64,000 nucleotides of DNA from Candidatus Omnitrophota bacterium (lineage in GTDB: Bacteria; Omnitrophota; Gorgyraeia; S143-82), in NCBI GenBank assembly GCA_015494465.1, contig WGBD01000001.1:180477-244476 (forward strand), in the 5' to 3' direction. Position numbers and translations under genes: made by a program. Under the pieces are notes generated by a model. It did no database searches. It was given only the letters and a program-made list of their open reading frames with translations, and was not told the origin of the DNA. Shown here one piece after another: positions 8,234 to 46,382 of this stretch (position 1 is its first letter; each line of letters begins with the position of its first letter).

Positions 8234-11200
8234 TTAGACCGCAGTCTCAAATGCCCGGCGAACCTCCACCGGCGGGGCCTTATGCCACAGACGGAACCAC
8301 AACCCACGCCACCTCTGATTTATCACTATCAGGCCATCGCGCAGGCGCCTCCACAGCCTGTACACCCCGTACATAAACGGATTCCTCTCCCATATCTCTC
8401 TGGTAAGCCACCAACGCCACTCCTCTGCCATCTCGAACAAACTTATCCCGAACATACTCAAGGACTTTACCTCCTCCGGCCACTTCCGGGAGGCGATGTC
8501 CATCAACTCCTTTATCCGGTACACCTCCATACCCGGTATTATCTTGGCCACCACCCGGCCCACATAGTAGGAGATGCTCTTGCGGTAGACCTGAGATATT
8601 AGACTGCTCATGTAATCGAACATGGAGAAGAACAACTCCTCTTTGCTGGCAGTCGGCCTCAACTGCCTCTCTATCCCGAAGTGCAGGCCTGCCCTCAGCA
8701 TTATCCTGCTCGCCCGGCCGTTCTCCAACAGGACCGGGTGTATATAGAGGATGCCCTTATCCGCATCCATTAGCATAGGCCTCTCCGCCATCCGTATCTC
8801 CCTGTAGCGCAACAGGGCGGTCAGTATCTCATCCTCGCTATAACCCTCTCTCACCAACGCGTCCACGACATCCTTCAATGCCCTCCTCATGTGGAGGCTA
8901 TCCCTCACCCCTTCTATCCTGATGGAGTCTATCGCATCGGTGATCCTTGCCCTTGGAGAGAACAGGCCCAGTAGTTCTTCTTTGAAGGAGGACTCGTCCT
9001 CCCTCATTGCAGAGGCATCCAGGACCAACACCCCGTTATCCAGAAGTTGCACCGCCTTTGCCCCCTCCGGCCTGTCCTCTACCCAGATCAGAACGTAATC
9101 CGCTCTCACCCCCGCCTGCCTGAGCCAGAACCTCACCTTCGCCTCCATATGGGCCATCTCCATCCTGCGCAAGAGCCCAGCCTTGCGCACATCCACCAAG
9201 ACCTTCGCACCCGGCCGGACCTCCCTCACCGAGACCTCAAACCTTAAGCCCGCATCCTTACGCTTCAGGGGTGCCACATCTATACCCATTCTCGTTCCGC
9301 GGAACCAGTTCCTCACCCTTGCCTTCAACCTCATCCACACACCCGCATCCGACGGCCCGGGCACCTGCCTAACCCGGCCCCTGCTCCTCACCCCCTGCAG
9401 GGCCAGGCGCACGGGCACGATCACATAGGTAAGTCCAATCCAAACGGTGTATACCGCCATCAAGGGTATCGCCATAATCACCGCCAACGGACCCCTATCA
9501 AACAGGGCCCAGAACCGGGAGGGCCTCAAGCCCGGCATACCGTACTTCTGCTCGAGTTCGTCCTCAACCTTGACCAAGGCATTCAGGACATCGCGTATCT
9601 CCTTCTCGCTTATCTCCACTTCATCCAGATCCGGGACCTCATCCTTGTAGGCCTCCAGTTTGCCATATAAGGTCATTTCCAAATTATGCAAGGGGACTTT
9701 CCGCTTTTTTTCTTTGTTGAGTATATACTTCTCATTTACAAACGCCCAGTACACACCCGCAATCTTGGGGTTCCTCTCCAAGATACCCGCAACCCTGTCT
9801 ATAATCTCGTCCTTCACCGACTCTATCATCCCGTTCTTGGCATACAGGGTAACATAAGCAATCAGTATCTCGGAGATGGTGGTGGAAAGTGCCCGGGCCC
9901 TGTCCTCCCACTTCTCCTGTGCCTTCTTCGTCTCTTTCTTCTCTTCTTTGCCTTTCTCGTTTACCGACGAACCACCTGCACCCGCTTCACCTTTGACCTT
10001 CTCTTTCTTTTCCTCTTCTTTCTTCCCTTTTTCTTCCTCTAAGTCCGGTAACTTCGGCCACCTCGCCAACATCGCAAACAACGGTCCGGCGGAGATCCTG
10101 CGGTAGATCGCATAGGGATTCACCGGGGCCTTCTTCCCGACCTCGTAGTTGTACAGTTTGTAAGGATCGAGGAGGAAGACCCTGCGCATAGTATCTCCCA
10201 GCATCAGGCGGGTAATCACTCCTTCAACCGCATCCGCAACGCCGTACCAGTAGATACGGCCAAGTTGCTTTATCCTAAACAACATTCTGTATCGACTCTC
10301 GCCATTCGCCATCAACACTCCGGCCACCCATCCCAGACCTGCCCCCAGTATGGCAAACGGCCAGAGAGAAAGGACTCCCAAAACCCCCGAACCCACGATG
10401 GCAGATCCAATCAACGACTTTATTCCCATAACCACACCGGGGAGCAATACCGCCCCTGCCACCGCCCCGGCAATCGCAACGACCCTGCCCCCCTTGCCCA
10501 GCAACTCCCACAGGTTCTTCGTCGGCCGTTTATCCGCCGGATTCATAAGGGCAGGACCAAGTGCACCCGCTATCGGCATAAAGAAGGTCACACCCCAGAG
10601 CACCATCTTGAGCGGAGATGCCCCTGCGAACAGGAAGGTCAACAGGGATATCAGGGCGTACTGCTTTATCGTGCGGTAGGCTATGCCGTATATCCGCTTC
10701 TCCGGTGCGTAGGCAAGTTGGGCACCCTTTCCGGGCGTAGTGATAAACCGGGCGTACATCTTCATACCCACCTGCCCCACGCTCTCCTCGTACATAAACA
10801 GCCAGTGCACATAGGCCCAGTACAGGCGGGCGGGTATCTCCTTGAGCATGTCTTTTATGCCCCTTTTCCAGCCCTTTCCGAGGATACGGACATGGTAGAG
10901 GAGGAGGTTGATGTTTATCGCCTGAGAGAGGAGCAGTCCCGATATCCACAGGGCAAGCGGAGTAGCGGTAAACGGATTCCAGTCCAGTATCAGGAAGGCC
11001 AGAAGCGCCCAGCGGATGTACCGGGTGATAAGGACCTTCTTGGTGTAGAAGCCAAGACCGTCCAGCCAGTAATTGTTCAGTATGTAGGCCCAGGAACTGG
11101 ACGGTGCGAGCATCATGTTGATGCTGTATCTGCTATAGGCACTCTCCGGGGCATCCTGCGACCACTTATAGACCGGAGTTGCCGCGTCCACATACTGATA

Positions 11201-14200
11201 GGGCCAGGCCTTCTCTATAATCATAGACGGATTCTGACTCACATAATAACCCACCGGATACCTGTCTCCTCCGGTGAAGGACTGGAAGGCAATCACCGTC
11301 ATAAGGTCTTCTGCCACATAAGAGGTCGTGGCGCCTTCGGACCAGCGCATAGGGGTGGTACGGATGAAGAACTTACCGTAGGCACCCATACCGCCTATCT
11401 CGTACTTGCCGATGTGGGAGGCATAGAAACCTTCTTCACCAACCGGCAGAACCTTACCGATGATGCCAAATCCTTTGCTCATATGGTGGCGTATCTTGGG
11501 TATCGTCGCGGAGGCGTAGGAGTCAAAGCGATAGTTCATCAACTCCCCAACCTCTGCGAACTGGTTCTCCGGCCTGAAGGCGTGGTCCGCATCCACTGCC
11601 AAGATGGCCCGGGAGGTACTAAGCGGGACCACCGCTGCGAACTGATTCCACTTGGCCCCGTGGAACTGTTCGTTACTGCTCATAATGAAGGGCATAGAAT
11701 CGGTGGCAATCACCTCGTAGAGGAACCGCTTAAGGCCATGCGTCGCTATACCTCCATTTTCACCAATCACCTTACCGGGCACCCTGGCATCCTCTATGGC
11801 CCCCTGCCCCTTCTCCCAGAGATCCCGCACCCTCTCCGAGGTCTCCATCGCGCCGTAGAAAAACCTCTTGTAGGTATCTACATCCTTTTCTAAGTCGAAA
11901 ATCTCCTCATTCTGAGCCACATTCATGTGCGGCTGGAGCAGACGGGACACCACCCGTATGCGGGAGGAAAGGTACAGGTCTCGCACTTCCCTCTCACTGA
12001 GTTTAGGTAGATCCTCTTTCAACCTCTCCGAGGCCCAGTCGTAAAGGAGCTTCCCTTCTTCGTCAGGGGTATACCCCTTCTTGAAGGCATAGGATATGAC
12101 GGTTTCGGGCAGTACCGCCTTGTAGTTGACCATCTCCTCCAGTCTATCCCTCACCGACTCCTTGTTGAGTATCAGGGTAGCGGTGTAGACCCGATTCAAT
12201 GCCCACCGGGCGGTGGAGGTGGTGTTCACCGCTGCCTGAAGCCTGCGGTTGGCCCATACGGTCAACAGGTTCAACGCCTTCTCCACCCCCTCGGTCTTTG
12301 CCTTTTCTCCGAATAGTTTTTCAAGCCAGGTGTGCACATCGGGAATGTCTTCAGGCCTGTCCGCATAGGCAAGGAGATCGTCCAACATCTTCTCCAAATA
12401 AGTCCACTCCGGACCTTTCTCCCTCATAGAGCGGGCATAGTCCTTCAGGGCAACAAACTCCTCCCGCTTCTCCGGCACGGACAGGAGCAGGCCAATGCGA
12501 GAGACCATATGGTCCTCATTCTCATTCTTTGCGAATAGTTCGTTTACGGTGAAGAAGGGCAGTTCACTATATCCGTTGTGCACGATTATCTGATTGTCAA
12601 ACTCGCTTGCGCTTCTATAAAGCGTCAACCCGCCCCTGCGCAGGAGTTGATTGGCAAAGTCCCTGAATCTGGACTTGATGGCCCCGTTCTTCAACAGAGC
12701 ATCCAGCAGGCGCTCCAGTTCCGCCCGGTCTACCGCACCAAACCTGTCCACATCTATCTCACCGTCTTCTCCTCGAGTTATCCCCATGGCCCTCTCCAGT
12801 TGCCTCACTACCTCCGGCGAGATGAGCATCTCTCCCTCTTCCGTCGAGCTCATCGCCTCCAGCACCAAGGCGAACTTGACGCGATTCTCCTCTCCCAAGG
12901 TAAGCCTCGTATTCACATACCCGACCCTCTCGTCGGTCAAGAGGTCTACGAGAGCCCTGCGAATCTCCTTGGGATTATCGCCCACCGCGTAGAGGGCCAT
13001 CTCGTTCATCGTCCTGAGGCCCAGAGACCCCATGGTCAGATAACTCTGGCTAAACGGCGTGAGCACCACCATGGTAAAGAAGGCAAGGACATAGGCACCC
13101 ACCGCCAGGGCGTACCTGACTGGATCCGGGATTTCTATCACCGTAGAGGGGATTACAGGAGCGTGGAAGGTGTGCAAGACCACCGCCCCCGCCAGTGCCA
13201 ACAGGGCAAGACCCAAGATGGTCTGGGCCAAGATGAGAGACCTACCGGTCAACCTCCGTTTGACCTGCGTATCGTAAAGCGCAACTGAAACCACCGCTAT
13301 CGCACCTGCCAGAGGCAGACCGACCAGAGACCGCAGGTCCACACCCGCAGGCACACCCACATTTACCACATCCCAGTCGAAGTAAGAGCCTATCAAGAGG
13401 GCCAGTCCCAGAGAGGAGAGCATTATCGCCAGATGGGCGATCCGCCTCATCCTCTCCTTATAGGTAAGGTTGTTTACTGCCCCTTGAGAGAATATCCTGC
13501 CCATGTTCTTCCAGACGAAGCCCAACTCCTTGAACTTGTACTCCCAGATGTTGAACCTCCTGCCGGTAAGGATTACATCCCCCGCGTCTATCAGGGCCTT
13601 GTAGAAGCGGAACATCGCACGGTCCAGTTCCGCAGGGGAGACCTCCTTGCCCTCGGCTATGGCCACGAGGGTGTCCTGCAGGGCCTTAGCGGACTCCCGC
13701 ACCTGCGCGCTATTGCCCTTATAGAGGCCACGGTTGACCTGATTCAGGTACCTGAACACGATGTTCAGGACCTCCTCGGTCATCACCCTGCCCTTGCCCC
13801 TTATAAGCGTGGCTGCGTCCCTCTGGGTCTCGTGGGCAGAGATGTTGCTGGCCATTACCTTAATCAAGACCGAGCGGAGATTGCTTATCTGAGGAATCAG
13901 AGCGTTAACCGCAGAGACGATGTCCTCATCGTATATCCTCTTGGAGACGATGTTCTCCCACAGCCACTCCTCAAACCTGCCCTGAGAGGTGAGGGAGTAT
14001 ATCCCCCGAGAGATAAGGGCATTCATACCCAGCCAGTACCTCACCCCGTGCAGGGCACCGTAGGAGAACCGGCCGTACTCAAAGTCCACCGGATAGGGAT
14101 TCATGTCGTCGGTGTAGTCGAAGATGAAGAGGTCCTCTTTGGCCAGTTCTTCTTCGCCGGGGAAGTCCACGACCTCCACCTTAAGCCGTGGCCTTCCGTT

Positions 14201-17200
14201 AATCTCGGTAAGGCCGTCGAGGAAGCGGTTGAACATAGAGGCCCGCATGTTCACATAGTACTGATTGAGATACGGATCCTTCTTCCAGCCCTCTGCGGAG
14301 AAGAACTCGTCCATCCGATCTGCCAACTCTTGCTTATAGGCATCCGAGGCGAGGATGTATCCAAGGGCGATGGACAACAACCTCCTCCTGCCCACCTCCT
14401 CGTCCATACCCAAGGCCTGCAGGCGCTTGGCAGAATCGCGCAGGTCCTCTTCCATCTTCCTGCGCTCCTCATCGCTTAAACGGCCTGCAAACCTCTTCAG
14501 GAAGCCACCAAGATTCTCCCTGCCCGAGGAGATCCAATCAATAATCCCGTCTAGATCGGAAACTCCTCTAAAGGAATCCCAGGCCACCGCAGGGAGAGAG
14601 AAGTTGCCTATCCGGACCAACTCCCGTGAGGCCCTCATCAAGGCCTTCTTTGCCTTGGGATACTTACTCAGATCCGCACCGGAGAGGGAGGCAAGTATGA
14701 GCGCAAGGGTAAGGGCCTGCAGATCCTCCCTGCCTTCCAGTTTATCCCTCAACTCCTGCCAGGAGACATCCTCACCCAATCCCAGTCTATTGCGCACCTC
14801 ATTGACGAAGCCTCCGCCTCTCAGGAAAGCGACCTTCTCGTCATCGCGGTCCACCTGATAGCGGGTCTTGAACATTGCCTCCACGAACTCCAGAGAATTG
14901 CGGAAGCCAAGCGCCCTCTGTCTGGCCATCATAACCAATGCGGTCTCTTCCTTGCTCAATCCCAGTTCCTGAACCTGGCGCCAGGTCATAGAGTTGAGGT
15001 TGAGTCGGAACTGGGAATACATCTTACGCAATTGCTTCCTGCTCAGCCAGTAGACCACCGGCACCCCGAACACCGCCACCAGCATAGGCAGGACGAACAG
15101 GAGCCCGCCTATCCAGAGGTACCAGAAGGCAAAGAGACCAACAGCAGTCGGCAATATCACCCTATAGGCCTCAGAAGGAGAGAGCTGTTTGGTCAACAGC
15201 CCTACAATCGCCCCCAGCCAGTTGCGGTTCCCCTGCCAATCCCGGGCAGTGCCTTCTTTCGGTTTTGCCTTTATCGGTTTTTCCAGATCCGGAGTCCTGT
15301 ACTCATCTTTATGCCTTATTACCTGTTCCACCGCGGAGGCAAAGTAAGGAGAAAGCTCCTCAGCCAGATGGGAAACCGCCTCGGTATCCGCAACCAATTC
15401 ACCTTCCTTGAGCACCTTTTCGAGGATTCCCTCGGGTGTCCCTACGGGGAAGATGCCGAACAGGATCTTACCGAGGAAGGAGTTGCGGAAGTAATCCCAG
15501 AGGTGAACGAAGGTTGGCACTCCCTCTGCGGTGCTCATGTCTCGAGTGAGCTGGGTAGTAGAGTAGATGAGCACCCCGTTCCTGAGCAAGATGTATTTCC
15601 GGCCGAGATCCTTGGTGCTCTTCTGGTACTTGTGGGTAGGGATAACCTCTATCGCGGTGTAGTCGTTGCCCTCTTCGTCCTGCCAGACATACCTCTTGAC
15701 ATGGAACTGCTCAAACCACTTACCTCTATTCGCATCGTACAGGTATTCCGCCAAGGCGTTCCCGTTCTTGTCCACGAAGGAGACATAATAGAGATCCCTA
15801 TCACCGTAGTACCTGCGGATGTAGATCCTGGTCCCCATGGGCAGATGGGTATCACCCGGATTGCGAACTTCCAGGATAAAGGTCTCGGCAAACTCGGCCC
15901 GGTTCTTCTCAAACCCTATTAGGACGAAGGAGACATTACCGATCTTGACCAACCTCCTGGCACCACCCTGAGCAACCCTGTGGAGGATTTCTGCCTTATC
16001 GCCTAGGATCTGTCGCACCTGCTCTACTTCGGATGTGATCTGACCTATCCTGTAAAGCGATCCCTGTAGGATACGGCGGGGTACGATCTTGCCGTTTTCC
16101 CTATCCACTTCCACGGACAACTTGCCAACAGGATTGCTCAAACCGATGTCGTAAGTGCCCATCAACAGGACATCTACCCAGCGACGAGGCTTATACACCT
16201 TCCAGTTACCGTTGACCTCTCGTTCAGCAACAAGATCTCTAACCACCACATTCACCATCTTAGCCAATACTTGTCTTGCCCCTTCTCCCTGTAGATGCCC
16301 CAGATCGACCTGTTTCAGGAAGAAGTGCAAGGCCTTATCGTCCAGAAGGTCCAGATACGCCCTTTCGTTCATCTCGGTCCAGACCTTATAGATCTTGTGA
16401 TTGACGAGATCGATCTCGTAGCCCATCACCGGGAACTTGTCCAACCACTTTCCGTAAAGGGTTATCGACAGGATCTCGCCCTTTTCGTTAATCTCCAACC
16501 TGCCTACCTCTCTCGCTGCCGGATCGCCTGCCTTCACGAGAGATACGATTACCTTGCCGTTAGAGACCACCCTCGTCCGACCCAAGCTAAGATCCGTACC
16601 TCGCAACCTGGCGAACAGCTCTAACATCTCTTTGGAGACCGTAGGATCTATCCCCCGTATATTCTGGAGTATGTGCTTTATAAGTGAATCCCCACTCATC
16701 TCTCCAAAGGACTCCAATTCCGCAATAGTGCTCTCTTTCCCGGGACCTCTCAGTACCCACTTTCCTTTACAAATAGTACCTCCTATCGGAGGCTGAACTG
16801 CCACACCGGTAGCCGGAATCGGGAAGGCCTTTTCTTTACGACTCTCCGACATGATCTTCATCAACTGACCAAACGGATTGTTGGAGGCACGATAGTCCTG
16901 GATTACCATGCTCTTGTCAAAGTAGATCACCTGAGCAGTCACGAAGACATCGCCGTCTTTTTTGGAGACATCCGCCTGCACGATCTTACCTACATTGATC
17001 CAGTTCCCCTCCGTCAGCTGATACCTCTCCATAACCACCGGCTCGCTCAACAGGAACTGGCGAGGCAGGAGCATCACCGGCGGAACGAGTCCTTTCTCAT
17101 CCACCACGAACTCCACCAACTCCTGTCCCAAGGCATTATCCTCGGGCACATAAACCTTTATGTGATCCATACCAGAAATAGGATTGCGCCTGATGGTGAA

Positions 17201-20200
17201 CGCCAGATAGGCGTTTGGCAGGACTTTTCTCTCTTGCAGGAGATCCCTCAGTTTCGCCTTCACATTTTCCGGCAGACCTTTAATTTCATCCAGACCTTTG
17301 GCCTGCACCTCTATGTATTCCTCACCTTGAGCGTAGACGAAGTAGTGTTTGCCCTTTTCCTTCAAAAGAATCCCACTCCTCCAGGCGCGGACATCCTTTT
17401 TCAGGGAAGAGGTAATCTTGCTTATCAATTCAGGAGACAACCTCTCTTTCAACTCATCCCAATCCCCCTCTATCACTGCATAGGCAACCTTTGTCTTCCT
17501 GTCCACCACCCTCTTTATCGTGTAGACCTTACCGGCAATGGTGACCTCCCCGGTTACCTCTTCGTTCTGACCTCTGATGTCCGCAAGTTCCCCGAGCGGG
17601 GTCCTTTCCAGTATCACCTGTCTTTCAGGGGTCAGCCCGCCTTTCTCGGGATAGACCTTCCGGATCCACCATTCCTGATCGTACTTCTTATCCACGAGTT
17701 TCACCCTCACCGGAACGCCCGCAGGACCGACCTTCTCTTCTCTCGTCTTGACTCCAGTACGGGTCTTGCCATCCTTGGTCCGATATCTTACATATTTCTC
17801 AAATCTGACCCACACCTCTTTCTTCTTTGCATCGTATCTCGACCGGGCCCGCTCCAAGATCTCCTGCCGAGCACCGTCCCACTTGCCAGAGAGCATCCTC
17901 GGAAGGAGATCCCTGATGTCCTTGGGTAAGTAATCCACCAGTATGGCTTCTCTCATCCGGACCCTGTTGCCCGCAATCTTGCCCTCGTATATAACCCTAG
18001 TCCAGACCAGACCGTAAGAGGTACTGCCCTTTTCGTCCACATAGCGGGTAGGTACCGCCCTCGCGATGAGGTCGCCGTAGGCATCAGATATCTGGTAGGA
18101 TTTGCCCTCGCGATAAGACCAGACCTCTGCAACCTTCCAAACTTTACCGTCTATCTTCACCCACTTCTCCTCTATTCTCTTCAGCAACTCTCCGTGTTTA
18201 TCCTTCACCTCCCGGACTACTGTACCGTCTTCGCGGATCTCCTTTACCTGCTCAACTGTGTTGGCGTTCATCTTCAAGACCGGATCGGCGCTCAACTCCT
18301 TCCTGTCCCAGACCCAGGTCTCTTCATACCAGGCGGTATCCTCTCCTTTGACTTTCCCAACGGCCATACCGCCCTTTTCTATGTGGATGTCGTATATCTC
18401 CTTTGCCACCTTGCCATCCGGCCTGTAGAATATGACCCGCTTGGGCAGATCGGAGAGACCGCCGTACAGGGTCTTAATCACACCACCATTGGCGAGCTTG
18501 CGCTCTATGTCCCTGCCGAAGATGTCCAACTTCACCGTCTCTCTGGCTATCTCGCTCCTATCCGGGGTAAACTTAATCACCTTAAAGGACGCGTTACCGT
18601 CCTTATCTACCAAGGCCCTCTCCCACAACTCCGCAAGGTAGAGCCTGGAATCGCGTCCTTTATAGACCGCAGACCTCTTTAGCCTGCCCTGCCGGTCAAA
18701 CTCGTTCTCTATTATCTGGTGATTCTCAGCAAACCTGTCGCCCCGTTTCTCCACCATAACCGGCTGGAGGAACCAACCGTAAAAGACCTTCTTCTTCTCT
18801 CCGGTCCTCAGGTCAAGGACCTCGTGGATCTCGGTTATCTCGGAGAGATCCACTACCTCTTTATTGGGATCCCTCAATATCTGATGTATCCTGATGTGAT
18901 AAAGGTGTCTGGCCTTGCCGGTATAAATCAGTCTGCGTATCTCATCCCAAGACCTGCCCCTCACATCCCGGGAGAACTCGTATACCTCCGCCGAATCCTT
19001 GACGAGGAAGTCGCGTTCGTCCGAATACTTCTTCCAGTTGTATATGGTAACCTTTCCGTTGGCGCTTATCTGGGCCAGCAGGTGCCCATCCTTTATAACC
19101 AGTTTCTCCACCAATCCGGTATCCGGATTGACCCAATCCACCTCCACCGGCTTGTCTCCGCTGGGGAAGTGGACGGTTATGACCTCTTTCTCACCGTCGC
19201 CGTCCAGATCTATGGGTATGTTCACGAAGTCCTTTCTAAAGGCCTTTATCCTTTCCACATCAGGGAGGTGATTTATCTTGTTAAAGATTGCCCTCACCTC
19301 TTTCTCGTCGACTACTACCTCTTTGACCTCACCGTTCTCTTTGCCCACAGATATGGCTATCTTGCCCTGCTTCAGGGCACCTTCCACCTTGCGGGCAAAT
19401 TCACCCTGCAGTTTGAGGCGCTTGACCTGCTTGGCCACCTCGTCCGTGGAGACGATAATCGTAAACCTCTTCACGCTCCCATCCTTATAGGGGAGGTAAA
19501 ACTTGGAGAAGTACATATCCACATCAAAGACCTCTTTGAGCCGGGAGACATCTACGCCCTCCTCCTCAAGGGTCCTTATCGCCTCTATCCCCTGCAGGAG
19601 GATCTTCCTGTCCGGGCCTTTAGCCCCTTTCAGGGCCTCCTTCATCTCCTGCACCCTGAAGTGGTACCGCTTGTACACATCCCAGAATCTGACTATCTGG
19701 GCAGCGCTGGTCTGGAGCCTCCTCGCGGTCCTCTGGGCGTCCTTTCCGGGCCGGATGTCAACGATCTCTTTGGTGTGTCCTTTCTCATCCAACTCCTCTA
19801 TAATCACACCGCCCTGCCTCTGATTTACCACCCGGAAGTACTTGAGCATGTTCTGATACTTCTGGCGGGATATCTCGAGGGACTTCCTCACCCCCTTGGA
19901 GGTGAACATCGCCATACCTTTGACCTCTATCTCCGCATCGGGCTGGCCCAATCTTCCTTTCTTCACCTCCACATAGGCGTACACCGGAACGGACGAGCCC
20001 TTGTTTTCCCCGCTCATCTTACCGGAAGGACTCATGTATCCCAATAAGACCCATCCACCCTTGGCGGGATCAAACTCTGCCAGCCTGGACTCAAACTCCT
20101 CAAGGCTCATCTTCTCTTTCACATCCCGGCCTTTGACTAAAAGGACATCCGTATCCTCGTACCCTTTTTTCTGGTTAGTAAGTATCTCTACGAGGTCTTT

Positions 20201-23200
20201 GGTGGCCTTTATGCGGAACGGCAGGGTTATGTCCACACCCCAGAGGTAGATGTGCAGGGCGTCCTTAAGACTGTCCTTCCACCAGAACAGGAGCTTGAAG
20301 AGCGGATTGCGATCCCTTACCTCTTCAAGGGTATTGGTCTTGTCGACGAATTCCCTCAACTGATGGAGGATGTACCTGACATCGATCGTTACGCCAATCG
20401 GCAAGCGATTGAGCTTCTTTGCCTTTTCGCGTCCATAAGGCCCTTTAGACTTCTCCACCTTATACTTAGGAGCGTGATCGTAGGACAGATACTCGCGATC
20501 TATGAACTTATATACGATGTTGTGGAGTTTGATCTCCCAAGGCAGACCGAACCAATAGTTGTGGAATACCTCCTTTGCACCCCTGTCCCAATCCTTCTCC
20601 GTCAACTCTGCCAGCGAAGACAGGATCCCGGTGAAGGTCAATATGTCTCTGTCCAGTTTCTCCGTCGCATCCCCCTGACCCAAGGCCTTTACGAAGTCCT
20701 TATCCTCGTCCACATTCCTGATGGCGCTCATAAACAGACGATACAACTCCTGATAATCTGCTTCGTTGAGATCCTGCCCGTACTTGGACTTAAGCCACTT
20801 ATAGGCCTTCAGGACCTCTCCCCTTACTGCGGTAGAAGTGGGATCGAGTTTCCTGCCGGCGTTCTCTTTCCGCACCTTCTCTACCGCCATCACCCAGAGG
20901 AGGTAATCGTTCAGTTTCTGTCTGAAGGCCTGCTCGTAGTCGTGCCTGCCAACATACCTATCCAGTATCCCGAACAGTATGGCCGCCAACTTAAACCCGG
21001 CACCTATCTGGGGAGAGACGAACGCACTACCAAGGGTGGCAAAGAACCAAGCAGTACCGGCTCTCACCTGACCCTCCAGATGGCTTACCATAGACGCCTG
21101 GGATATGGCACTGAGTATACTCCGGGCAAACTCCTGCTTTGCGGACCAGACCGTACCAAAGAGCATCGGCATCCTGCGCGCGTCCTTTTCGCCTTTCACC
21201 ACGATCCTGAACTGCAGCGATCCAGATGCCTTACTCTTTATCTCCTCCCAAGTTACCTCTTCCAACTCGTCGCTCGTGCCCTTGACCCTATAGGCCTTGA
21301 CCTCGTACTCCTTATCTCCAACCTTTACCAGCACCTGCTTCCTGCCGTCGGGGAGGATTACCTCCTTCAACTCACCCTTGGATATCAAGGCTTTCACGCC
21401 CGTGGGGATACCGGTGACCGGATCCACATCCATTACCACTGCGACTATCGGACCGGTCTGACGGGCGGAGGCCTTGGCCTGGAGCATCTGCCTGACCCGT
21501 TTCAACTCTCTCAATATCTGGGCATTGGGATCGTCTCCGCCTTCACCACCGGATCTACCAGAGGAAAGGCCTTTGATGTAATCGTCCAGCACCTTGAGGG
21601 CCCTTTCCACATCGCCCTCGGCCAATGCCCTGTCAAGGGCATTTGCTACCTCCCTGCTGACGAGGTACTGCTCCTGCACCGCCTTGTCCTTCTCCCAGGC
21701 GTGATATCCGAAGAAGAACCTGTACTCCTCACCGGACTTTGCCTTGACCTCTAGCATCACCGGGACATTCTTGCCCTCCCTGTGGATGGCGTCCAGATCC
21801 GCAGGGGTGAGTATCTGACCATTAATCGCATTTTTAACTATTACCTCACCGCCCTCCTCCTTTATCTTCTTGACCCACTTCTTGAAGGCGATGGGATTGG
21901 TAAAGACCTTCTTTATGCTATATTCCGGACCCTCTACTTGGAGGGCGTAGGTTTCCTTATTCAGCATCTTCCTCTGGATCTTCTTCCAGTTGAGCGCCTT
22001 GCGGAACTCGGTCTCAAGGGCATTGAGCACCTTCTCGGGAACGGGCTTTTTTGCCTCTATGGTAGCCTGTTCTATCTTCTGCTGTACCTTCACCGGATTG
22101 GTGATCTTCGGCGTCTTAACCTTTACCGGAGCGGGTCCCTTCTTTATCTCCTTCGGCCTTTCGCCTGCCTTGACCGGGCTGGCAACACTGCCCATCAGCC
22201 AGTTCAAGGCCCTACCCAAGGTCCGCTCGAGGAAAGATGGCTCCGAAGTCGCCTTCCCTGCCTCCTTGGCCAGTCTATCCCTCTCGTTTACCCCGCCAAC
22301 CAACCCCGCAACGGAGGATCCCAGTCCCGGCAGGACCACCGAACTGGCCACCATCACCCCACTGCGGACCAGATTCAACATCGTCGTCTCGATGGGGGCA
22401 ACCAGCCAGGAGATGTGCAGGTGATGGGCGGTGGAAAGGACCATGTGTATCTCCAGCGGCAACAGCATAAGTGGAACCATCCCCGGCAGGGCATAACGCA
22501 GTGTGGTCGAGGAGAATAAGCCTCTGCCAAATGTGGCAAGGTAGGAAACCGTCCTCTCGGGCAGGGAGAGCCTTACCTCTTTAACATCCAGACCCAACTC
22601 GTTAACCAGAGACCTCCACTCCACCTCCGGCCAGAAGAACTGCAGAGACCTTGCGAGACCAACCAACCTCTCATCCTCAAGGTCCTGCTCCTCCCTCAAC
22701 TTCCTAAGGAGTTCCCTGACCGCAGTGGTGTCGTCCACCCTCACCGGAGGGGCGTTGTTCTGATATCCGACGGCCCTCAACAGCTCATCCAACTTGCGCT
22801 GGGCGGATCGTATCCTCCGGACCTTCACCATCGACGGTGCGGTGAACAGGGCAGAGAGGCTGAAGGTGTTGGCCAGATAGGGCGCAATCGCTACCTTGTG
22901 CCCGAAGAGGGATACGACCCCTGTGCTGAGGAACGGCGCCAGCGCAAAGAGATTGGCTACCCCAAGCGTCGCCAGGGAGGAGAGGACGAACAGCGTGCCC
23001 CTTCTCTTAAGGAAGTCCAGAGTCCCGCCAAGCGTTACATTCCTCTCGAATGCAGATCTCGTCTTACCAACGATGCCGAAATTGCCTCTTTCCTCCTCAG
23101 GCAGGGACAGGAACGCAGACACTACCCGGTTCACCTCTTCCTCAGGCAACACTCTGTAGTCCCTGAACTGGGCAACCAGCCACCGCTTGCGGAAACTCTG

Positions 23201-26200
23201 ACCGAAGAAGGAATCCAAGAGGTGTATCATCGTCCTCGGCACGAACATCACCCCGTCAACCATGCGCCTGGCGGTGCTCCACCCCAGTTTGTCCGCCACC
23301 CAAGCGTACACCGCCAGTTTCTTGGGCAGACCGGTAATCCCCAGCCTTGCATACCAGTTCGCAATCGTTCTCCTCAACTCGTGGACAGAGAGATTGCTCA
23401 ACCGGGCCTCGTCCAACCCCATAAATCGCTGAGCAAACTCCTTAAGAGCCACCTCGTCCATCTCCCAGACGAAGCCGGCCGACCGCACGGATGAGTAGGC
23501 CGACAGGAGGTATTCTTCTTTTCTCCTCTCCAACTCCCTGCGGAGAGAGGAGACCTCAGCCTCGGACAATCTTTTGATGGTCTCTTCCTTAAGGCCAAAC
23601 TCTTTTACGAGTCGCTCCCGATCTCCAGATATGCCCTCCAACCGGTTGCTCTCGTCCGGAACGAGTTCTACCCTGCCCAGACTGTCCACCGCCACCTTAA
23701 GGGCCTCGTTCCCGGCATAGCCGGTCATCTTCTCGTTGGAAAGAGAGGCCGCCGTCCTCCTCAAGCCCAGCCATCCCTGAATGAACTGGGAATACCCGAC
23801 GAACAGGGCAGGTATCCCAATGCCCCAATAGGCCCACAGAGAGGCATGGGCGGTAGCGAGCATCCCTCCTGCGTATATAGCACCCAGTCCCGCTCCGGCC
23901 TTGAAGGCAGAACCCGCCAAAGACCTCCAATCGGTCTTTCTAATCGCCTCTTTCCAATTCGCCTCTCTCAACTGACTCAACAGGGCCCTTAACTCCCTGC
24001 CTATGCCCAAAACTGCTCCACCGGCTGCCCCTGCCAGAGCGGCAGCGACGGCGGCAGGCATACCTACCGAGGGCAGGAAAGACATCCCCGCAAGGACCGG
24101 CACAGCGGTCGTAAGGGAGAGGCGGGAATTCGCCAGATCACTCATTATCGCTCCCGGCCCCTTGGTTACCGCCTTCCAACCCGCATAGGTACCGAACATC
24201 GCCAATAGACCCGCGCCACCGGAGGTAACGGTCAACACAGTAAGCGGCAGGAGATAGCCCTTGCGCCCCAACACCCTGGACTGGACGGACAGACCCTTGT
24301 GGTAGAGACGGGCTAACCTGCCCTCCTTACGGTATCTGTCCACCAGATCCTTAAACTGTTTATTAGCCCGTTCACCCGCACCCAACAACGAGCTAAGATC
24401 CTCATTCCCGCCGTTTACCAACGCCGATAGAACCTTCCCGACCAAGTCTGTATTCTCCACCCCGTTATTCACCACCGCCCGAGCCACGGCATCTATCGCC
24501 GAGGAGACCGGATCAACCTGGGCGAACTTCGCCATCCACCTGTTTTCCAACATAGTCGCAAACGGATTGGCCGGGGCAGAGGCCTCGGCAAGCGCCCGCT
24601 TTAATCCCCTGAGTTGACCCTCGTCGGGCAGATAACGGGCAAGGATGTCAAACTTGTCTCTCAGAGACACATCGGAATCCGCGAGTTTCATCGCATCCCG
24701 CACGGTAATATTGTCCTCAATCGCCTTTGCTCTATCCCCAAGGGCGGTTTCCAGACCGCTTAGCACCGAACGGACCGCCTCGGCCTTCCCTCCGGCGAGC
24801 ATAGCGGTAGCCATCTCCCGCGCCAGTTTTCCATCTTCCAAGGAATTCAGCCCAAGGGCCGTTAATCCCTTGCTTTCTATCTCACTCCACCTGATTCCCC
24901 TCTTCGGAACGCCCCTGTTGAGTACCGACCAGCCGAGGACCGGCAGTGAGGACACACCCGCAATCACCTTTGCGATACCGGATGCCCCTGCCACTGCTAT
25001 GGCGCCTCCCGTAGCAAGGGCGATAGACGGATTCAACAGAAGGAGACCCAGACCGACCACCCCTGCCAAGGCAGTGCCGGTGGCGACCTTGGGCATAGGT
25101 CCAACCGGGGCAGAGAAGGAGAAGGACGGAATCATCCTATCCCGAAGCCTTAATCCCAGTTGCCCCTTGAGAGCCCCGATATTATCGAGAACCTTCCCGT
25201 TATCTATCTCCGGCAGGGCAAGTTCCCGCTCCACCGCCAATGGAGTGCTCAAAATAGCCTTTAGCGAGGAGGACGCTACAGACCCAAGATAACCCCCAAG
25301 GGCACCTATCTTGCCCGACCATCCAAGGGAGGGATTCCTCCACTCCCTCAGGAACTCCATCTTTGCCCTCTGGTGGGCAAGGTTCACCGACGCCACCTTA
25401 CTTGCCCCGACCCGCTTGGGGGTGGACAGCCTCACCGATAGGTTATTCAGGAACTCCTCAAGGCCCATGTCCTTTGCCCTGAAGGCCTCTTTCCTGATAA
25501 AGTCCTCGTCGGTTATGCCCAACCTATTCCGCATAAGCTCGCTATACCCTACCACCCTCAGGGCCTGCTCGTAGGAGAGGTTGGGATTTACGAATACATG
25601 GGTAAGGGCATCTCTGATTTCGCCGGTCTTATCTCCTACCTTTTCACTGATGTTTTTGATGCCCGCAAGGGCCTGGGCCGGGCTGGTGAATTTTTCATTC
25701 AAGGTCTCCACTTCATCTTTACGGGTATTCAGTTTTTTCCCTATCTCCGAAAGGGCCTCAACCACCTGTTTCTGGGTATCCCCATTGAAAGACCCTTTTG
25801 AAATATTCTCTATGGCCTGATTGAGGATTTGATTCTTGTCCTCGGCAAGCACATTGGAGACCACAGGATTGGCCAAAAGGCTGTTCAGTTGAACAGAGAT
25901 CTGCTGGAGTTGTTCGTTACTGACTTGATTAGGATTGAGTTGGGATATCTGAGCGGTTATCTGGTTTACACTCTGCAATGCGGAGGATATTTGGTTAGGC
26001 AACTTGTTCAACGCCCCATTCAACAGATTCGCCACCGCCGGAGGTGCGCGCAGGGTGGTAGGGGACATCCCCGCAAACGACCTCGCTAATTGATATTCGA
26101 GATTCCTCCTTACCTCAACCGGCATATCCTTTGCCAGGGCATTTACGACCACCTTCGCGGTATCGTAGGCGGTCCTGCCGTGTCCAGGGGCCTTCTCCAC

Positions 26201-29200
26201 CATCAACGCAGAGATAGCCCCCTCGTTCCACTGAGGGGTAAACTCAGGCTGACTAGACGGTGCGGTCTGTACCTCGACTCTGGCCTCCTTCTTCATCTCC
26301 CGCTCCAAATGGGACTGGGAAACCGCACTTGAACCTCCATTAAGCACATCCTTACCCCAAAGCCTCTCTACGATCTTGCCTATCTCCTGCCCCTTAGCCT
26401 CTCCCCTAAGATAGGCATCCAGTTCACCGTACCTGAAGGCCTCCTTTAGATCCTTTGCCACACCCTTGCCTACTTCCCTCTCCACCCTGTCTATCATCCT
26501 GTCCATCTGGGTCCTTACGGCCTCAAGGGATTCCCGCACCAATTCCTCTGGTGTCAATATCTTTTCTCTGGACAAGAGTTGTTCAAAAGGATTGTCCTTG
26601 GGATTCAGTATCTCCTCCGTTTCGATTCTTTTAAGCCTCTCGTAGACCTCGGGCCTGCCCAAGACCCCATTCTTCGCCCCCGAGACGAACATCTTCCACG
26701 GGGTGGTGAAGAGGTTCGCCCGCATCACATCGGTGAGGATCCTCCGAGTGGCCTTGGCGGATTCCACCGCCTGCATCCCAGCCAGATAAAGGGCAAGTAC
26801 CTTGGACTTCTCCTTACCCTCCCCTTCAAGATACTTATCCAACTCTTCTTCCTTAAGGTTGCCATCCTTGTCCAGGATATCCGAGCGGATCTTCTTCCAC
26901 ATCTCCTTGTAAGACACATTTGAGGCCTTGACCCTTGCTTTGGCCTCTGTCCTCGTCTTCATTACCCTCATATCCACCTGATCTATCAGATCAAGGGTGC
27001 GGGACACGTCTTTGGAACGGAAGAGGTTTTCTTTGAGGAAGTTCTTCACCAGACTATCCGCAACATATATGTAGGCATTACCACTGCTTCCGCCCTCCTT
27101 TCTATTTATCCTTCCCAACACCTGCTCTGCCAATGCCTTGCTCTGGGAAGGAGAGACTATGTCAATGAGGTCCACCCTTGCCTTATCACCTGCGGTTATA
27201 CCTCTGGCTCCCAGTTCACTGACGAGTATCACCTCAGGGGCCCCCGCACCTTTCTCCCCGAGATTCCTTGCTACACTCTCCAACTCCTCCGGCTTATCCG
27301 TATAATCCTCGGCATTTATCCCCTTTTCCCTTAACCTCTTCAATATCTCTTGCCTCATCCCGGTATCCTCTACCACCACATAGTAGGCATCCACCTTTTC
27401 TTTACCCTTGAGGTTGAGCCCGCTTACTATACCGTTCACCACATTATTGATGAATTTATCCTTTTTCTCCTCCTTGAACACATCCCAAAATACCCCGGTC
27501 TGCTTCCCGCTGGTCATCACTACCTTTTCGCCATCAAGGACTAGGGTTATAGGCCTTCCGATGGTCTTCACCCTCTTGCCGGTTATACCCTCAACCAATG
27601 GTTCTATGTCCCTGAGTGTACCGGAGAGGAAGACCACATCACCAAGCCGTGCCACATTCAGCAGTTCTCCCACACTGGTGGAGGTCACCGTGATCCCTCC
27701 CGCCCGGGTATTCTCAAGGGCAGCCTTATAGTCAAATCCTCTTTCTTTGAGCAGCGTAGAAACATGCTTTACCTGCTCTGCTCCTACCCTCACCTCTTCT
27801 GGTTTAAACTCGCCCTTGCTTATCAAACCGGACAGAAAGGCCTTTGCCCCCACATACTGCACATTCTTGCTTATCTGCTCGGGACGGAATTGCCCCTCGC
27901 TATAGGGGACAAAGCGCTTTTCCTTGCCATACCAAGACACCATCCTATCAAAGACCAACTTGCCACCGCCGACCTTAACGCCTTCTATCTCCGCCAGCAC
28001 GGTAACTAGGGAGTTCACTCCAGCCACCGATACACCCTTGCCGACCAACTTATCTCCCCTGCGCTCCAATCTGAAGTCCTTCAGGACCTGAGGGTTTGCC
28101 CCCTCTTTTATCTCGAACATCCCGGTCTGCTGGTTGTAGTTAAAGTTCTCGTTGAGGAACTCCTCAAATCCCTTACCCTCGTACCTCCCAAGTGCCCGTT
28201 TCACCCCTTCCCAGGCAGGCTGTATCTCCTTTTCAACCACATCCGCTATGGGAGCCCCGCCATCCCCTATTATGGCGTCCACCGGGGTCCTCAAAATGGC
28301 CTCCTCATCTATGATGACCCTCGCCCTATCGCCTATCTCCCTCCGCTTTGCTATAAAGGCGGTATACTCTCCCGCCTCGTAGAGTTTATTCATGGCCTGC
28401 TGGAAGGCACTGTACTCCCCAACCACTACCCTTCGCTCATTCGTGTTCGTGAGGACCTCCCTGATCTCTTTTGCATCCATCTTCGTGGGATCTATTACCT
28501 TTATGTTCTCCTTCCCTCTATAGTCTCTAATCAGATTCTCGTTGGAGGTCATGACATACATCTTATTACCGGTGAGTTTTAAGGCCTCTTGTATTACCTT
28601 GTTATCGACGAAGTTCTTCACCAGGGCCGAATTGGCAAGGTACAACTCAGTAAAGCCTTCCTTGGCGTAGTTATGGCTAATCGCCATCATCTCGCTGGCG
28701 TAGGTCTTTCCACCTCCCACAGGGGCCTCTATGTTCCAGAACTTCGCGCCCAAGATACCTTTAAGTTCTTGAACTGCCTTCGGTTTAAAGCCCTTATTCT
28801 CAACCTTCCTGAACGCCTCCTTCGTGGCCCAAGATGCCAAGACCGCACCTCCAATGTGCCGGCTGAGGGACTCAACCTCCTCTTTACTCAACTTCATATC
28901 GGGAGCAAACTCTTTCAGGATAACCTTTACGGCGTGCCTGACCTCCTTACCATCAACTTTCACTCCTGTTTCGCCCTCCTGAACCATCTGCTCGCCGAGT
29001 CCCTTATCTATCTTTGCAACGAGGGCGTCGAATTTCTGCTCAAACAAGGCGAACTTCTCCTTGGGAAGGATACCCCTCGCCGACTCTACCATAGTGGACC
29101 TTTTGACTGCCTCCGTATACACCGAACGGAACTCTTTGGCGCCCATCCTAAACAGGTCCTTATTACCACCCATACCCTCTGAGGCCTTCATCATGCTCCT

Positions 29201-40538: not shown

Positions 40539-40542
40539 ATTG

Positions 40543-45146: not shown

Positions 45147-45151
45147 TTATC

Positions 45152-45662: not shown

Positions 45663-45691
45663 ACCTCCCTTTTCAGGTTATCCTGATCAGA

Positions 45692-46057: not shown

Positions 46058-46073
46058 CCTCCTCTTTAAGAAT

Positions 46074-46380: not shown

Positions 46381-46382
46381 AT

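What the first reader, a model, noticed from the sequence alone, without database searches (positions are those of the whole stretch)
9392..15154. C-terminal third of the giant protein is polytopic (at least 12 TM helices in four clusters)
Strongly hydrophobic ~20-aa segments occur at aa ~8150-8195 (2), ~8720-8850 (4), ~9520-9800 (at least 6, e.g. GRVVAIAGAVAGAVLLPGVVMGI, GVLGVLSLWPFAILGAGLGWVAGVLMA) and ~10035-10065 (1-2). They are separated by soluble domains of 300-600 aa. Together with mid-protein clusters (aa ~4840-4900, 5120-5290, 5540-5600, 5700-5770; nt ~22.3-25.1 kb), this indicates a protein that crosses the inner membrane many times. That is unlike giant adhesins and more like a built-in channel or platform.
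Basis: seen in the sequence. Interest (0 to 1): 0.6.

Follow-up and report, generated by a model that had tools for sequence, protein, structure and literature searches.

The report
Hidden polysaccharide synthase inside giant protein
The membrane-spanning stretches at the end of this 10,455-residue bacterial protein are real, and most belong to an unannotated enzyme module related to cellulose and fungal beta-glucan synthases, which build a sugar chain and thread it through the membrane.

Summary
The giant ORF (8234-39601, minus strand, 10,455 aa) has about 14 strongly hydrophobic helices in its last 2,300 residues. That is far more than shuffled sequence gives, and they are conserved in an orthologue and in distant relatives.

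The polytopic nature of such giant proteins is already published for Omnitrophota, the likely source phylum.

What is new is the identity of the core. Residues ~9300-9700 form a module conserved in about 40 other giant proteins of Omnitrophota and Elusimicrobiota, none annotated as a synthase or glycosyltransferase.
- A profile of the module hits yeast FKS1 beta-1,3-glucan synthase (E 6e-9) and bacterial cellulose synthase BcsA (E 3e-6).
- An AlphaFold model (pLDDT 72) matches mainly membrane-integrated processive synthases.
- The DxD motif, the ED catalytic pair and other functional residues are invariant or nearly so across the family.

Four helices before and four after the catalytic domain reproduce the BcsA layout. 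Charge bias puts all large soluble domains in the cytoplasm.

It is most likely a glycan-translocating synthase channel, not a SecY, T2SS-F or ABC-type channel. Product and activity are untested.

The parts
8234..39601 (-). Giant ORF, 10,455 aa. GTG start, with an ATG three codons in.
   Evidence: An orthologous giant gene lies next to PEPCK in a related genome: 42% identity over aa 7916-10455.
9398..15160 (-). Conserved ~1,900-aa membrane cassette (aa 8148-10068): hairpin, soluble domain, 4 TM, GT domain, 2 TM, interface helix, 2 TM, (insert), hairpin.
   Evidence: Hydrophobic peaks recur at about -1100, -600 to -400, +220-250 and +345-365 relative to the module start in nearly all of the 14 relatives examined. 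A peak near +730-770 recurs in about half of them. Collinear weak homology runs from aa ~8350.
15029..15160 (-). TM hairpin 1 (aa 8148-8191).
   Evidence: KD 2.42, Hessa -1.2. Homologue columns are hydrophobic, 1.73. It is weaker in the L004 orthologue.
13052..13441 (-). Four TM helices (aa 8721-8850). Proposed N-terminal half of the synthase membrane domain.
   Evidence: KD 1.96-2.33. Conserved in homologues and in the orthologue (17/25 and 19/29 identical). Loop charges alternate as in/out/in/out/in.
12122..13504 (-). Conserved block A2 (aa 8700-9160): the 4 TM helices plus a ~300-aa cytoplasmic domain. Invariant E9013 and R9035, among others.
   Evidence: jackhmmer recovers this block in 21 relatives. 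Alignment A2. No PDB or Pfam match. The link to the FKS1 N-terminal GT part is only suggestive.
10502..11704 (-). Synthase module A1 (aa 9300-9700): GT-A catalytic core plus 4 TM helices and interface helices.
   Evidence: 40 relatives in 1.84 billion representatives. Profile against PDB: FKS1 E 5.7e-9, BcsA E 3.2e-6. AF2 pLDDT 72, pTM 0.74. Foldseek top hits are BcsA, chitin synthase, hyaluronan synthase, FKS1, Cgs and CesA.
11582..11593 (-). DADH (D9337, D9339): the DxD metal/UDP-binding motif.
   Evidence: Invariant in 22 sequences. Aligns to BcsA 'FDADH'.
11306..11317 (-). VAED (E9431-D9432): catalytic ED of the finger helix (TED/NED equivalent).
   Evidence: Invariant. Aligns to BcsA 'TED' and to FKS1 E1221-D1222. 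Role of those residues: PMC10499315.
11144..11176 (-). P9476-x-x-K9479-W9480-x-x-D-x-x-E9486: the QxxRW-position motif on an interface helix.
   Evidence: Near-invariant. Aligns to BcsA 'QQRGRW' and to FKS1 K1261.
10895..11032 (-). TM pair after the catalytic core (aa 9524-9569), with invariant N9542 in the turn and near-invariant Q9560.
   Evidence: Model helices 218-239 and 248-274. 33/53 identical in the orthologue.
10703..10870 (-). Amphipathic interface helix (aa 9578-9614) and loop with F9619-I-T-T9622-P-G-K (gating-loop-like).
   Evidence: Model helix 279-315 followed by a loop. F320 invariant and T323 near-invariant. Aligns to FKS1 'ARYISTGRGF'. The FxVTxK gating loop of cellulose synthases: PMC10592267.
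10544..10657 (-). TM pair (aa 9649-9686) ending in the conserved 'APFxxNP'-type motif.
   Evidence: Model helices 335-360 and 364-386. Aligns to FKS1 1440-1494.
10304..10486 (-). Gly/Ala-rich TM hairpin (aa 9706-9766). A lineage-specific insertion.
   Evidence: Occupancy <=0.18 in distant homologues. Present with a 6-aa deletion in the orthologue.
9398..9490 (-). Last hydrophobic hairpin (aa 10038-10068), with Arg-rich flanks on both sides.
   Evidence: KD 2.2, Hessa 0.2. 21/45 identical in the orthologue. A peak near +730-770 occurs in about half of the relatives examined.
8237..9397 (-). C-terminal basic tail domain (aa 10069-10455). Function unknown.
   Evidence: Conserved in L004, and at 27% identity in the 16,032-aa giant of L003. 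No PDB match.
39636..41397 (-). Two TadB/TadC-like (T2SS-F domain) genes immediately upstream of the giant gene.
   Evidence: PF00482, E 2e-14 and 1e-19.
44507..47122 (-). Run of seven small ORFs with Flp-type class III signal motifs (KGQS[TAV][AI]E[YI] followed by a hydrophobic helix).
   Evidence: Read directly in the translations. Only a sub-threshold Pfam Class_IIIsignal hit.

Best explanation
**What it is.** The last ~2,300 residues of the giant protein form a membrane-embedded glycan synthase cassette. A GT-A glycosyltransferase domain sits in the cytoplasm, with its core at aa ~9310-9520 and probably starting near aa 9000. Four transmembrane helices precede it (aa 8721-8850). After it come two TM helices, an amphipathic interface helix with a gating-type loop, and two more TM helices (aa 9524-9686). 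This is the layout of bacterial cellulose synthase BcsA and of the catalytic core of fungal FKS1.

**How it most likely works (inferred).** The domain binds a nucleotide sugar through D9337-x-D9339 and a divalent cation. It adds one sugar at a time using D9432 of the invariant VAED motif. It then pushes the growing polysaccharide through the channel formed by these eight helices into the periplasm.

**The other helices (inferred).** The other hairpins (aa 8148-8191, 9706-9766 and 10038-10068) act as extra membrane tethers for cytoplasmic accessory or regulatory domains.

**Shown**
- Homology and fold.
- Conservation of the catalytic residues.
- Conservation of the helix pattern.
- Charge bias of the flanks.

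**Inferred**
- Enzymatic activity.
- The donor sugar.
- The product. A beta-glucan is a guess.
- That the upstream four helices complete the channel.
For: - **Hydrophobic segments are non-random and conserved**.
- **A conserved family exists.** The ~390-aa module is found in 40 cluster representatives, mostly proteins of 2,000-7,500 aa.
- **Conserved residues.** Invariant: D38, D40, E90, Y109, G110, E132, D133, G152, N243 and F320. Near-invariant: K18, H41, K165, P177, K180, W181, D184, E187, Q261 and T323.
- **Profile against PDB.** FKS1 E 5.7e-9, with two collinear stretches covering the catalytic core and the TM region. BcsA E 3.2e-6, covering HAKAGN, DADH, TED and QxxRW.
- **Pfam on relatives.** 7 of 22 relatives hit Glyco_trans_2_3 and 3 of 22 hit Glucan_synthase, best E 6.9e-9.
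- **Structure.** AF2 with the family alignment gives pLDDT 72 and pTM 0.74. All but one of the top 50 Foldseek PDB hits are membrane-integrated processive synthases; the exception is a GT-A mannosyltransferase. BcsA gives TM-score 0.56 over 385 columns.
- **Functional residues.** Family-invariant or near-invariant residues fall on FKS1 residues shown by mutagenesis to be essential: E1173, H1195, E1221/D1222, K1246 and K1261 (with the alignment).
- **Topology.** Positive-inside statistics fit a seven-hairpin topology with a cytoplasmic GT domain.
- **Upstream block.** The 4-TM block is collinear with the module in 21 relatives.
Against: - The window's own sequence hits no Pfam or NCBIfam model, even at E <= 1. 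It also hits nothing in the PDB by single-sequence search.
- The Q of QxxRW is replaced (P-x-x-K-W), and the first UDP-binding Asp was not located.
- The model covers only aa 9300-9700, so packing of the upstream four helices into a channel is not shown.
- The upstream block A2 has no significant match to any known structure or family.
- The Foldseek RMSDs are high, about 7 Å.
- No topology predictor was run, and there are no expression or activity data.
Confidence: 0.7

Rival explanations
1. The helices are passive anchors only. On this view the giant protein is a surface or predation protein whose large inter-cluster domains are extracellular, as proposed in general for Omnitrophota giant proteins. 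The synthase-like region would be incidental.
For: [quoted passage not shown] An N-terminal signal-like segment lies at aa 9-27. Tad pilus genes and glycoside hydrolases are nearby.
Against: Every cluster in the C-terminal third has K/R-rich flanks on both sides and K/R-poor short connecting loops. That fits hairpins with cytoplasmic domains. A GT-A domain using nucleotide sugars has to be cytoplasmic. The authors of that literature themselves call the topology predictions unreliable.
Confidence: 0.12
2. The fold is that of a synthase, but the module is a non-catalytic relic used as a membrane scaffold or a glycan-binding pore.
For: The QxxRW glutamine is lost. The first UDP-binding Asp was not found. 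The window's copy is too divergent for any Pfam model.
Against: The DxD, ED, KW, YGK and gating-loop F/T residues are invariant or nearly so across 22 sequences that share only 20-43% identity. That is the pattern expected of an active site under selection.
Confidence: 0.1
3. The TM bundles form a protein-conducting channel or a pilus-platform channel (SecY-, T2SS-F- or ABC-permease-like). It would serve self-export or the adjacent Tad system.
For: TadB/C-like genes lie directly upstream. A Walker A/B pair reminiscent of SecA lies at aa ~3630-3770. The literature proposes SecA-like domains for self-export.
Against: There is no Pfam, NCBIfam or PDB similarity to those families anywhere in the C-terminal third. 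The modelled helices match synthase TM domains instead.
Confidence: 0.04
4. The hydrophobic stretches are buried helices of soluble domains or compositional artefacts, not membrane spans.
For: Shuffled sequence of this composition already gives about 14 windows with KD>=1.6 in the whole protein. The Gly/Ala-rich segments (mid-protein, and aa 9706-9766) are only moderately hydrophobic on the Hessa scale.
Against: At stricter thresholds the C-terminal third exceeds all 200 shuffles. The segments contain no charged residues and are conserved in position across phyla. They align with the TM helices of solved synthases.
Confidence: 0.03

Closest known systems
Bacterial cellulose synthase BcsA (GT2; PDB 4HG6, 4P00, 5EJ1)
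   Same: - Four TM helices, then a cytoplasmic GT-A domain, then two TM helices, an interface helix, a gating loop and two TM helices.
- An identical 'DADH' DxD motif.
- An HxAK motif matching HAKAGN.
- An ED catalytic pair and a tryptophan at the QxxRW position.
- Best structural match: Foldseek E 9e-6, TM-score 0.56 over 385 columns.
   Different: - P-x-x-K-W replaces Q-x-x-R-W.
- No PilZ domain was detected after the last helix pair. Extra hairpins and ~700 aa of unknown cytoplasmic domains follow instead.
- Sequence identity is about 14%.
- The catalytic domain appears split by a long insertion.
- The module is embedded at the end of a 10,455-aa polypeptide rather than being an ~800-aa protein in a bcs operon.
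[quoted passage not shown]
   Same: - Best sequence-profile match: E 5.7e-9, in two collinear stretches that include the TM region ('ISTGRGF...APFVFNP').
- A lysine at the IF2 position (K1261) and at K1246.
- Y-G-[H/K] and [K/G]-E motifs at the IF1 and acceptor site.
- 3 of 22 relatives hit Pfam Glucan_synthase.
   Different: - It has a true DxD (DADH), whereas FKS1 has the metal-independent DAN.
- It has 4+4 core helices rather than 6+11.
- It retains the GT2-type tryptophan.
- There is no eukaryotic Rho1-binding context.
- The window's own sequence does not reach any Pfam threshold.
Giant Omnitrophota proteins ('Archaeovorin'-type; West-Roberts et al. 2023 preprint; 2026 complete-genome preprint)
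   Same: - A single ORF over 10,000 aa with many predicted TM helices.
- T2SS/Tad genes, glycoside hydrolases and a sugar importer nearby.
- Neighbouring housekeeping genes closest to Omnitrophota.

   Different: - Those studies report GT1, GT5, GH, peptidase, SecA_DEAD and dockerin domains, and left TM regions out of structure prediction.
- No FKS/BcsA-type synthase module is mentioned in them.
- This protein has no Pfam hit at all.

Membership tests
Membrane-integrated processive GT-A synthases (BcsA/CesA, chitin and hyaluronan synthases, FKS) | GT-A catalytic domain fused to a TM helix bundle, with interface helices between them | tested here: met
   The AF2 model of aa 9300-9700 has pLDDT 72. 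All but one of the top 50 Foldseek matches are such synthases, aligned over ~385 of 401 residues; the exception is a GT-A mannosyltransferase.
Membrane-integrated processive GT-A synthases (BcsA/CesA, chitin and hyaluronan synthases, FKS) | DxD motif | tested here: met
   D9337 and D9339 are invariant in 22 sequences and align to BcsA DADH.
Membrane-integrated processive GT-A synthases (BcsA/CesA, chitin and hyaluronan synthases, FKS) | Catalytic (T/N)ED on the finger helix | tested here: met
   VAED: E9431-D9432 are invariant and align to BcsA TED and FKS1 E1221-D1222.
Membrane-integrated processive GT-A synthases (BcsA/CesA, chitin and hyaluronan synthases, FKS) | QxxRW motif | tested here: inconclusive
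   The aligned position reads P-x-x-K-W. W and a basic residue are conserved, and Q is absent.
Membrane-integrated processive GT-A synthases (BcsA/CesA, chitin and hyaluronan synthases, FKS) | Gating loop (FxVTxK in cellulose synthases) between the interface helix and the next TM helix | tested here: inconclusive
   F9619-I-T-T-P-G-K sits in the loop after model helix 279-315. F is invariant and T near-invariant. It aligns to FKS1 'YISTGRG'. No tool alignment to the BcsA loop was obtained.
Membrane-integrated processive GT-A synthases (BcsA/CesA, chitin and hyaluronan synthases, FKS) | First UDP-binding Asp (BcsA D180) and the N-terminal half of the GT-A sheet | tested here: inconclusive
   Not located. 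The upstream conserved block A2 has no significant match. The candidate E9013 (~FKS1 E851) rests on hhalign E 0.061 against a sequence recalled from memory.
Membrane-integrated processive GT-A synthases (BcsA/CesA, chitin and hyaluronan synthases, FKS) | Processive polymer synthesis coupled to translocation | not testable with these tools
   Needs biochemistry.
GT48 / Pfam Glucan_synthase (PF02364) | Match to the family model above its curated threshold | tested here: not met
   The window's copy has no Pfam hit at E <= 1. Only 3 of 22 relatives hit PF02364, best E 6.9e-9.
GT48 / Pfam Glucan_synthase (PF02364) | DAN in place of DxD (metal-independent) | tested here: not met
   The family has DADH. 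FKS1 has DAN at 1102-1104.
GT2 / Pfam Glyco_trans_2_3 (PF13632) | Match to the family model | tested here: not met
   The window's copy has no hit. 7 of 22 relatives hit, best E 9e-6.
Giant TM-rich proteins of Omnitrophota (West-Roberts 2023) | Single ORF over 10,000 aa with numerous TM helices, next to T2SS-like genes, in Omnitrophota | tested here: met
   Named homologues of the neighbouring PEPCK are almost all from Omnitrophota.
Giant TM-rich proteins of Omnitrophota (West-Roberts 2023) | Divergent SecA DEAD-like domain | tested here: inconclusive
   GGGKT and IIDEEA motifs lie at aa ~3630 and ~3765. There is no Pfam or PDB hit.
   There are no such Pfam or NCBIfam hits and none among the Foldseek matches. 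Only aa 9300-9700 was modelled.

The most novel reading that the evidence does not exclude
Omnitrophota and Elusimicrobiota giant proteins would carry a previously unrecognised prokaryotic lineage of processive glycan synthases, lying between GT2 cellulose synthases and eukaryotic GT48 FKS/callose synthases. If so, these giants are largely cytoplasmic, membrane-stitched assembly machines that build and export a polysaccharide, possibly a beta-1,3-glucan, rather than only extracellular adhesins or degraders. The family could also bear on the so far eukaryote-centred origin of GT48.
Probability: 0.25. Interest if true: 0.8.

Novelty: new variant of a known kind. Interest (0 to 1): 0.55.

Why it matters
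Giant proteins of ultra-small, apparently predatory bacteria are almost entirely unannotated, and their many membrane helices have been treated as anonymous anchors.

This work assigns a concrete function to one conserved block of helices. The block recurs across two phyla and looks like a cellulose/FKS-type synthase, a glycosyltransferase with its own export channel.

- It gives a testable enzymatic function for part of these proteins.
- It suggests that much of the polypeptide faces the cytoplasm.
- It suggests that the giants may make a surface glycan as well as degrade prey glycans.
- It identifies a divergent synthase family missed by Pfam and NCBIfam, with mixed GT2 and GT48 features. 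That is useful for annotation and for the evolutionary history of beta-glucan synthases.

Tried and rejected
- **Pfam and NCBIfam** on the whole giant protein found nothing significant.
- **Single-sequence PDB searches** found nothing. Regions tried were the C-terminal 2,355 aa, aa 3550-4250 and aa 9768-10455.
- **The word-indexed protein search** found no relatives of the giant protein, either with the 2,355-aa query or with the family alignment. Relatives came only from the exhaustive representative search.
- **Single-sequence AF2** of aa 9250-9800 was unusable, with pLDDT 38.6.
- **The upstream conserved block A2** gave only chance-level hits against PDB and Pfam.
- **The SecA comparison** was not significant.
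- **A second copy** of the module was sought elsewhere in the giant protein. None was found.
- **SecY, T2SS-F and ABC folds** were rejected for lack of any similarity.
- **Plus-strand ORFs** inside the region (10265-11893 and 13433-14479) are treated as antisense shadows of the 31-kb ORF. They were not analysed further.

Full report
**1. The object**

The finding's coordinates (9392-15154) lie inside one uninterrupted minus-strand ORF, 8234..39601, of 10,455 codons. They correspond exactly to aa 8150-10070.

The ORF is a real gene. A related genome (NCBI GCA_054035575.1, locus L004) has a giant gene in the same place next to the same PEPCK gene, and its last 2,454 residues align to aa 7916-10455 at 42% identity. 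Another related genome (L003) has a 16,032-aa protein that shares the catalytic module and the C-terminal tail.

The named homologues of the flanking PEPCK are nearly all from Candidatus Omnitrophota, so the window most likely comes from that phylum.

**2. Is the hydrophobic pattern real and non-random?**

A simple Kyte-Doolittle threshold of 1.6 is a weak test here. Shuffles of the whole protein already give about 14 such windows.

At stricter thresholds the C-terminal third stands out. It has 8 windows with KD>=1.9 against 1.5 expected, and 7 windows with a Hessa-scale sum <=2 against 0.76 expected. None of 200 shuffles reaches either value.

- The segments contain no charged residues.
- The region aa 5801-8100 has no such window at all.
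I regard them as unproven.

I count about 14 helices in the C-terminal third:

| Residues (aa) | Helices |
|---|---|
| 8148-8191 | 2 |
| 8721-8850 | 4 |
| 9524-9569 | 2 |
| 9649-9686 | 2 |
| 9706-9766 | 2 |
| 10038-10068 | short hairpin |

Flanks assigned to the inside carry 40 K/R in 181 residues. Connecting loops assigned to the outside carry 3 in 55. Every cluster therefore looks like an even number of helices entering and leaving from the cytoplasmic side. This places the large domains between clusters in the cytoplasm.

**3. Relatives**

- No Pfam or NCBIfam model hits the protein.
- Single-sequence PDB searches and the word-indexed protein search were empty.
- The exhaustive search of 1.84 billion cluster representatives with aa 8700-9850 found 40 relatives. 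Nearly all match aa ~9303-9698 at 25-43% identity, and most are proteins of 2,000-7,500 aa.
- Ten were looked up, and seven carry a source name. Five are called 'hypothetical protein', and two are named after another domain (GNAT, YcbK). They come from Omnitrophota, Elusimicrobiota and Endomicrobiales metagenome-assembled genomes.
- Weaker collinear similarity extends upstream to aa ~8350.
- An iterated profile recovers the block aa 8700-9160, including the four helices, in 21 relatives.
- The hydrophobic peaks sit at nearly the same offsets from the module in nearly all of 14 relatives: about -1100, -600 to -400, +220-250 and +345-365. A further peak near +730-770 is present in about half of them.

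The whole stretch aa ~8150-10070 is thus a conserved cassette, not a private feature of this protein. The exception is the Gly/Ala-rich hairpin at aa 9706-9766. It is an insertion absent from distant relatives and altered in the orthologue.

**4. What the module is**

In the 22-sequence alignment A1:
- Invariant residues include D9337, D9339, E9389, Y9408, G9409, E9431, D9432, N9542 and F9619.
- Near-invariant residues include K9317, H9340, K9410, K9464, P9476, K9479, W9480, D9483, E9486, Q9560 and T9622.

A profile of A1 searched against all PDB sequences gives two groups of hits:
- Yeast FKS1 beta-1,3-glucan synthase at E 5.7e-9. Two collinear stretches cover the catalytic core (FKS1 1148-1273) and the transmembrane region (1380-1494).
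- Rhodobacter cellulose synthase BcsA at E 3.2e-6, across HAKAGN, DADH, TED and QxxRW.

Scanning the family members one by one, 7 of 22 hit Pfam Glyco_trans_2_3 and 3 of 22 hit Glucan_synthase. The window's own copy hits neither.

AlphaFold2 with the family alignment gives a usable model, with pLDDT 72 and pTM 0.74. Its Foldseek matches in the PDB are mainly membrane-integrated processive synthases: BcsA, chitin synthases, hyaluronan synthases, FKS1/2, cyclic glucan synthase and plant CesA. BcsA is best, with E 9e-6 and TM-score 0.56 over 385 of 401 positions, so the helices are included in the match. The one non-synthase in the top 50 is a GT-A mannosyltransferase.

Using the printed alignment and the FKS1 structure paper (PMC10499315), the family's conserved residues fall on residues shown by mutagenesis to be required in FKS1:
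- E1173 in IF1
- H1195
- E1221/D1222
- K1246
- K1261 in IF2

The DxD motif is literally BcsA's DADH.

The model's helix order after the catalytic core is TM, TM, a long amphipathic helix, a loop carrying F-I-T-T-P-G-K, then TM and TM. This is the BcsA order TM5, TM6, IF3, gating loop, TM7, TM8. The cellulose-synthase gating motif FxVTxK is documented in PMC10592267.

**5. Mechanism**

The best-supported reading is that aa ~8700-9700 is a BcsA/FKS1-type synthase.
- A cytoplasmic GT-A domain elongates a glycan from a nucleotide sugar.
- The DxD motif implies a divalent cation, unlike FKS1's DAN.
- D9432 would act as the catalytic base.
- The chain is extruded through a pore made by the four helices before and the four after the catalytic domain.

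The homology, the fold, the conservation of catalytic residues and helix positions, and the charge bias are shown. The activity, the donor, the product and the role of the upstream four helices in the pore are inferred.

The catalytic domain seems split, as in FKS1. The module alignment begins only ~20 residues before the HxAK motif, so the first strands of the GT-A sheet must come from upstream. The conserved block A2 contains motifs such as G-Y-x-E9013. I recall these as resembling FKS1's 'HYAE851...RVTLLEYLK...RIWAS'. PDB and Pfam searches with A2 were negative. This remains a lead only.

**6. Family placement**

The module works like a GT2/GT48 synthase but fails formal membership of either Pfam family for this sequence. 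Its features are mixed:
- GT2-like: DADH and the tryptophan of QxxRW.
- FKS1-like: lysines at the K1246 and K1261 positions, the 'ISTGxG' and 'APFxFNP' motifs, and the best profile score.
- Its own: P-x-x-K-W.

**7. Context**

Directly upstream lie two TadB/C-like genes, TadE/G-like ORFs and seven Flp-type pilin ORFs.

Further upstream are several carbohydrate-related genes:
- a GspF gene and a ROK-family gene
- two glycoside hydrolases whose best solved relatives are GH158 beta-1,3-glucanases
- a sugar ABC importer

This matches published descriptions of Omnitrophota giant-gene loci. Those papers also state that such proteins have numerous TM helices, so the bare observation is not new. Neither paper, nor a full-text search, mentions an FKS/BcsA-type synthase in these proteins. 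One of them explicitly excluded TM regions from structure prediction.

The GH158 neighbours are compatible with a beta-1,3-glucan theme. They are equally explained as part of a glycan-uptake cluster, so I do not rely on them.

**8. Verdict**

The novelty lies in an unannotated, divergent synthase cassette shared by giant proteins of two phyla. I rate this a new variant of a known kind, of moderate interest.

Noticed in passing
window 39636-47122 (minus strand): A Tad-type pilus gene set runs straight into the giant gene. It has seven small ORFs with Flp-like class III signal motifs (KGQS[TAV][AI]E[YI] followed by a hydrophobic helix), two TadE/G-like ORFs with N-terminal anchors (41671-43344 and 43564-44532), and two TadB/C-like T2SS-F genes. 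No TadA/CpaF ATPase or prepilin peptidase was seen among the ORFs of this stretch.
   Followed up: partly
window ~28262-28729 (aa ~3625-3780 of the giant protein): A Walker A (APVGGGKTY) and a 'VIIDEEAILRTPVDAIIG' stretch resemble SecA's TGEGKT and DEVDSILIDEARTPLIISG. Pfam and PDB searches find nothing.
   Followed up: partly
window 56405-57691 and 58945-60852 (minus strand): Two clan GH-A glycoside hydrolases have GH158 beta-1,3-glucanases as their best solved relatives (9oro at E 3.5e-13; 6pal). Both also pass the Pfam GH72 glucanosyltransferase threshold. They sit beside a sugar ABC importer (61423-63956) and near a ROK-family gene (52456-53676). Any link to the synthase product is untested.
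   Followed up: partly
window 15301-22200 (aa 5801-8100): A 2,300-residue stretch has not a single hydrophobic 19-mer, against ~1.9 expected from shuffles. It is Lys/Glu-rich and has YD/RHS-like short beta motifs. Only one relative (P0005) shares part of it (aa 6694-6983). If the hairpin parity is right, it would be cytoplasmic.
   Followed up: no
window 22301-25087 and 10304-10486: The mid-protein hydrophobic clusters and the aa 9706-9766 insertion are Gly/Ala-rich and look like glycine zippers. They are unlike the Leu/Phe/Trp-rich helices of the conserved synthase core. They may be a separate, faster-evolving kind of membrane tether.
   Followed up: no
window 8237-9397 (aa 10069-10455): The very basic C-terminal tail domain is conserved in the orthologue. 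It is also 27% identical to the end of a 16,032-aa giant protein in another genome (L003). It may therefore be a shared terminal domain of these giants. It has no known relatives.
   Followed up: partly
window 39521-39601: The N-terminus (MKGRKIFAQFLAIFTSILFIFENISWA/YG) looks like a cleavable signal peptide or a signal anchor. The N-terminal part of the giant may therefore lie outside the cytoplasm while the C-terminal third faces inside.
   Followed up: no
L006 10001-42362 (Elusimicrobia MAG JAJVIP010000006.1): A complete 7,525-aa relative carrying the synthase module has no Pfam hit. It is followed directly by a 3,234-aa protein with GT5 and GT1 glycogen-synthase-like domains. This is a second glycan-building giant next to the first.
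   Followed up: no
window 10265-11893 and 13433-14479 (plus strand): Long plus-strand ORFs (542 and 348 aa) lie antisense to the giant gene inside the finding's coordinates. They are most likely shadow ORFs.
   Followed up: no
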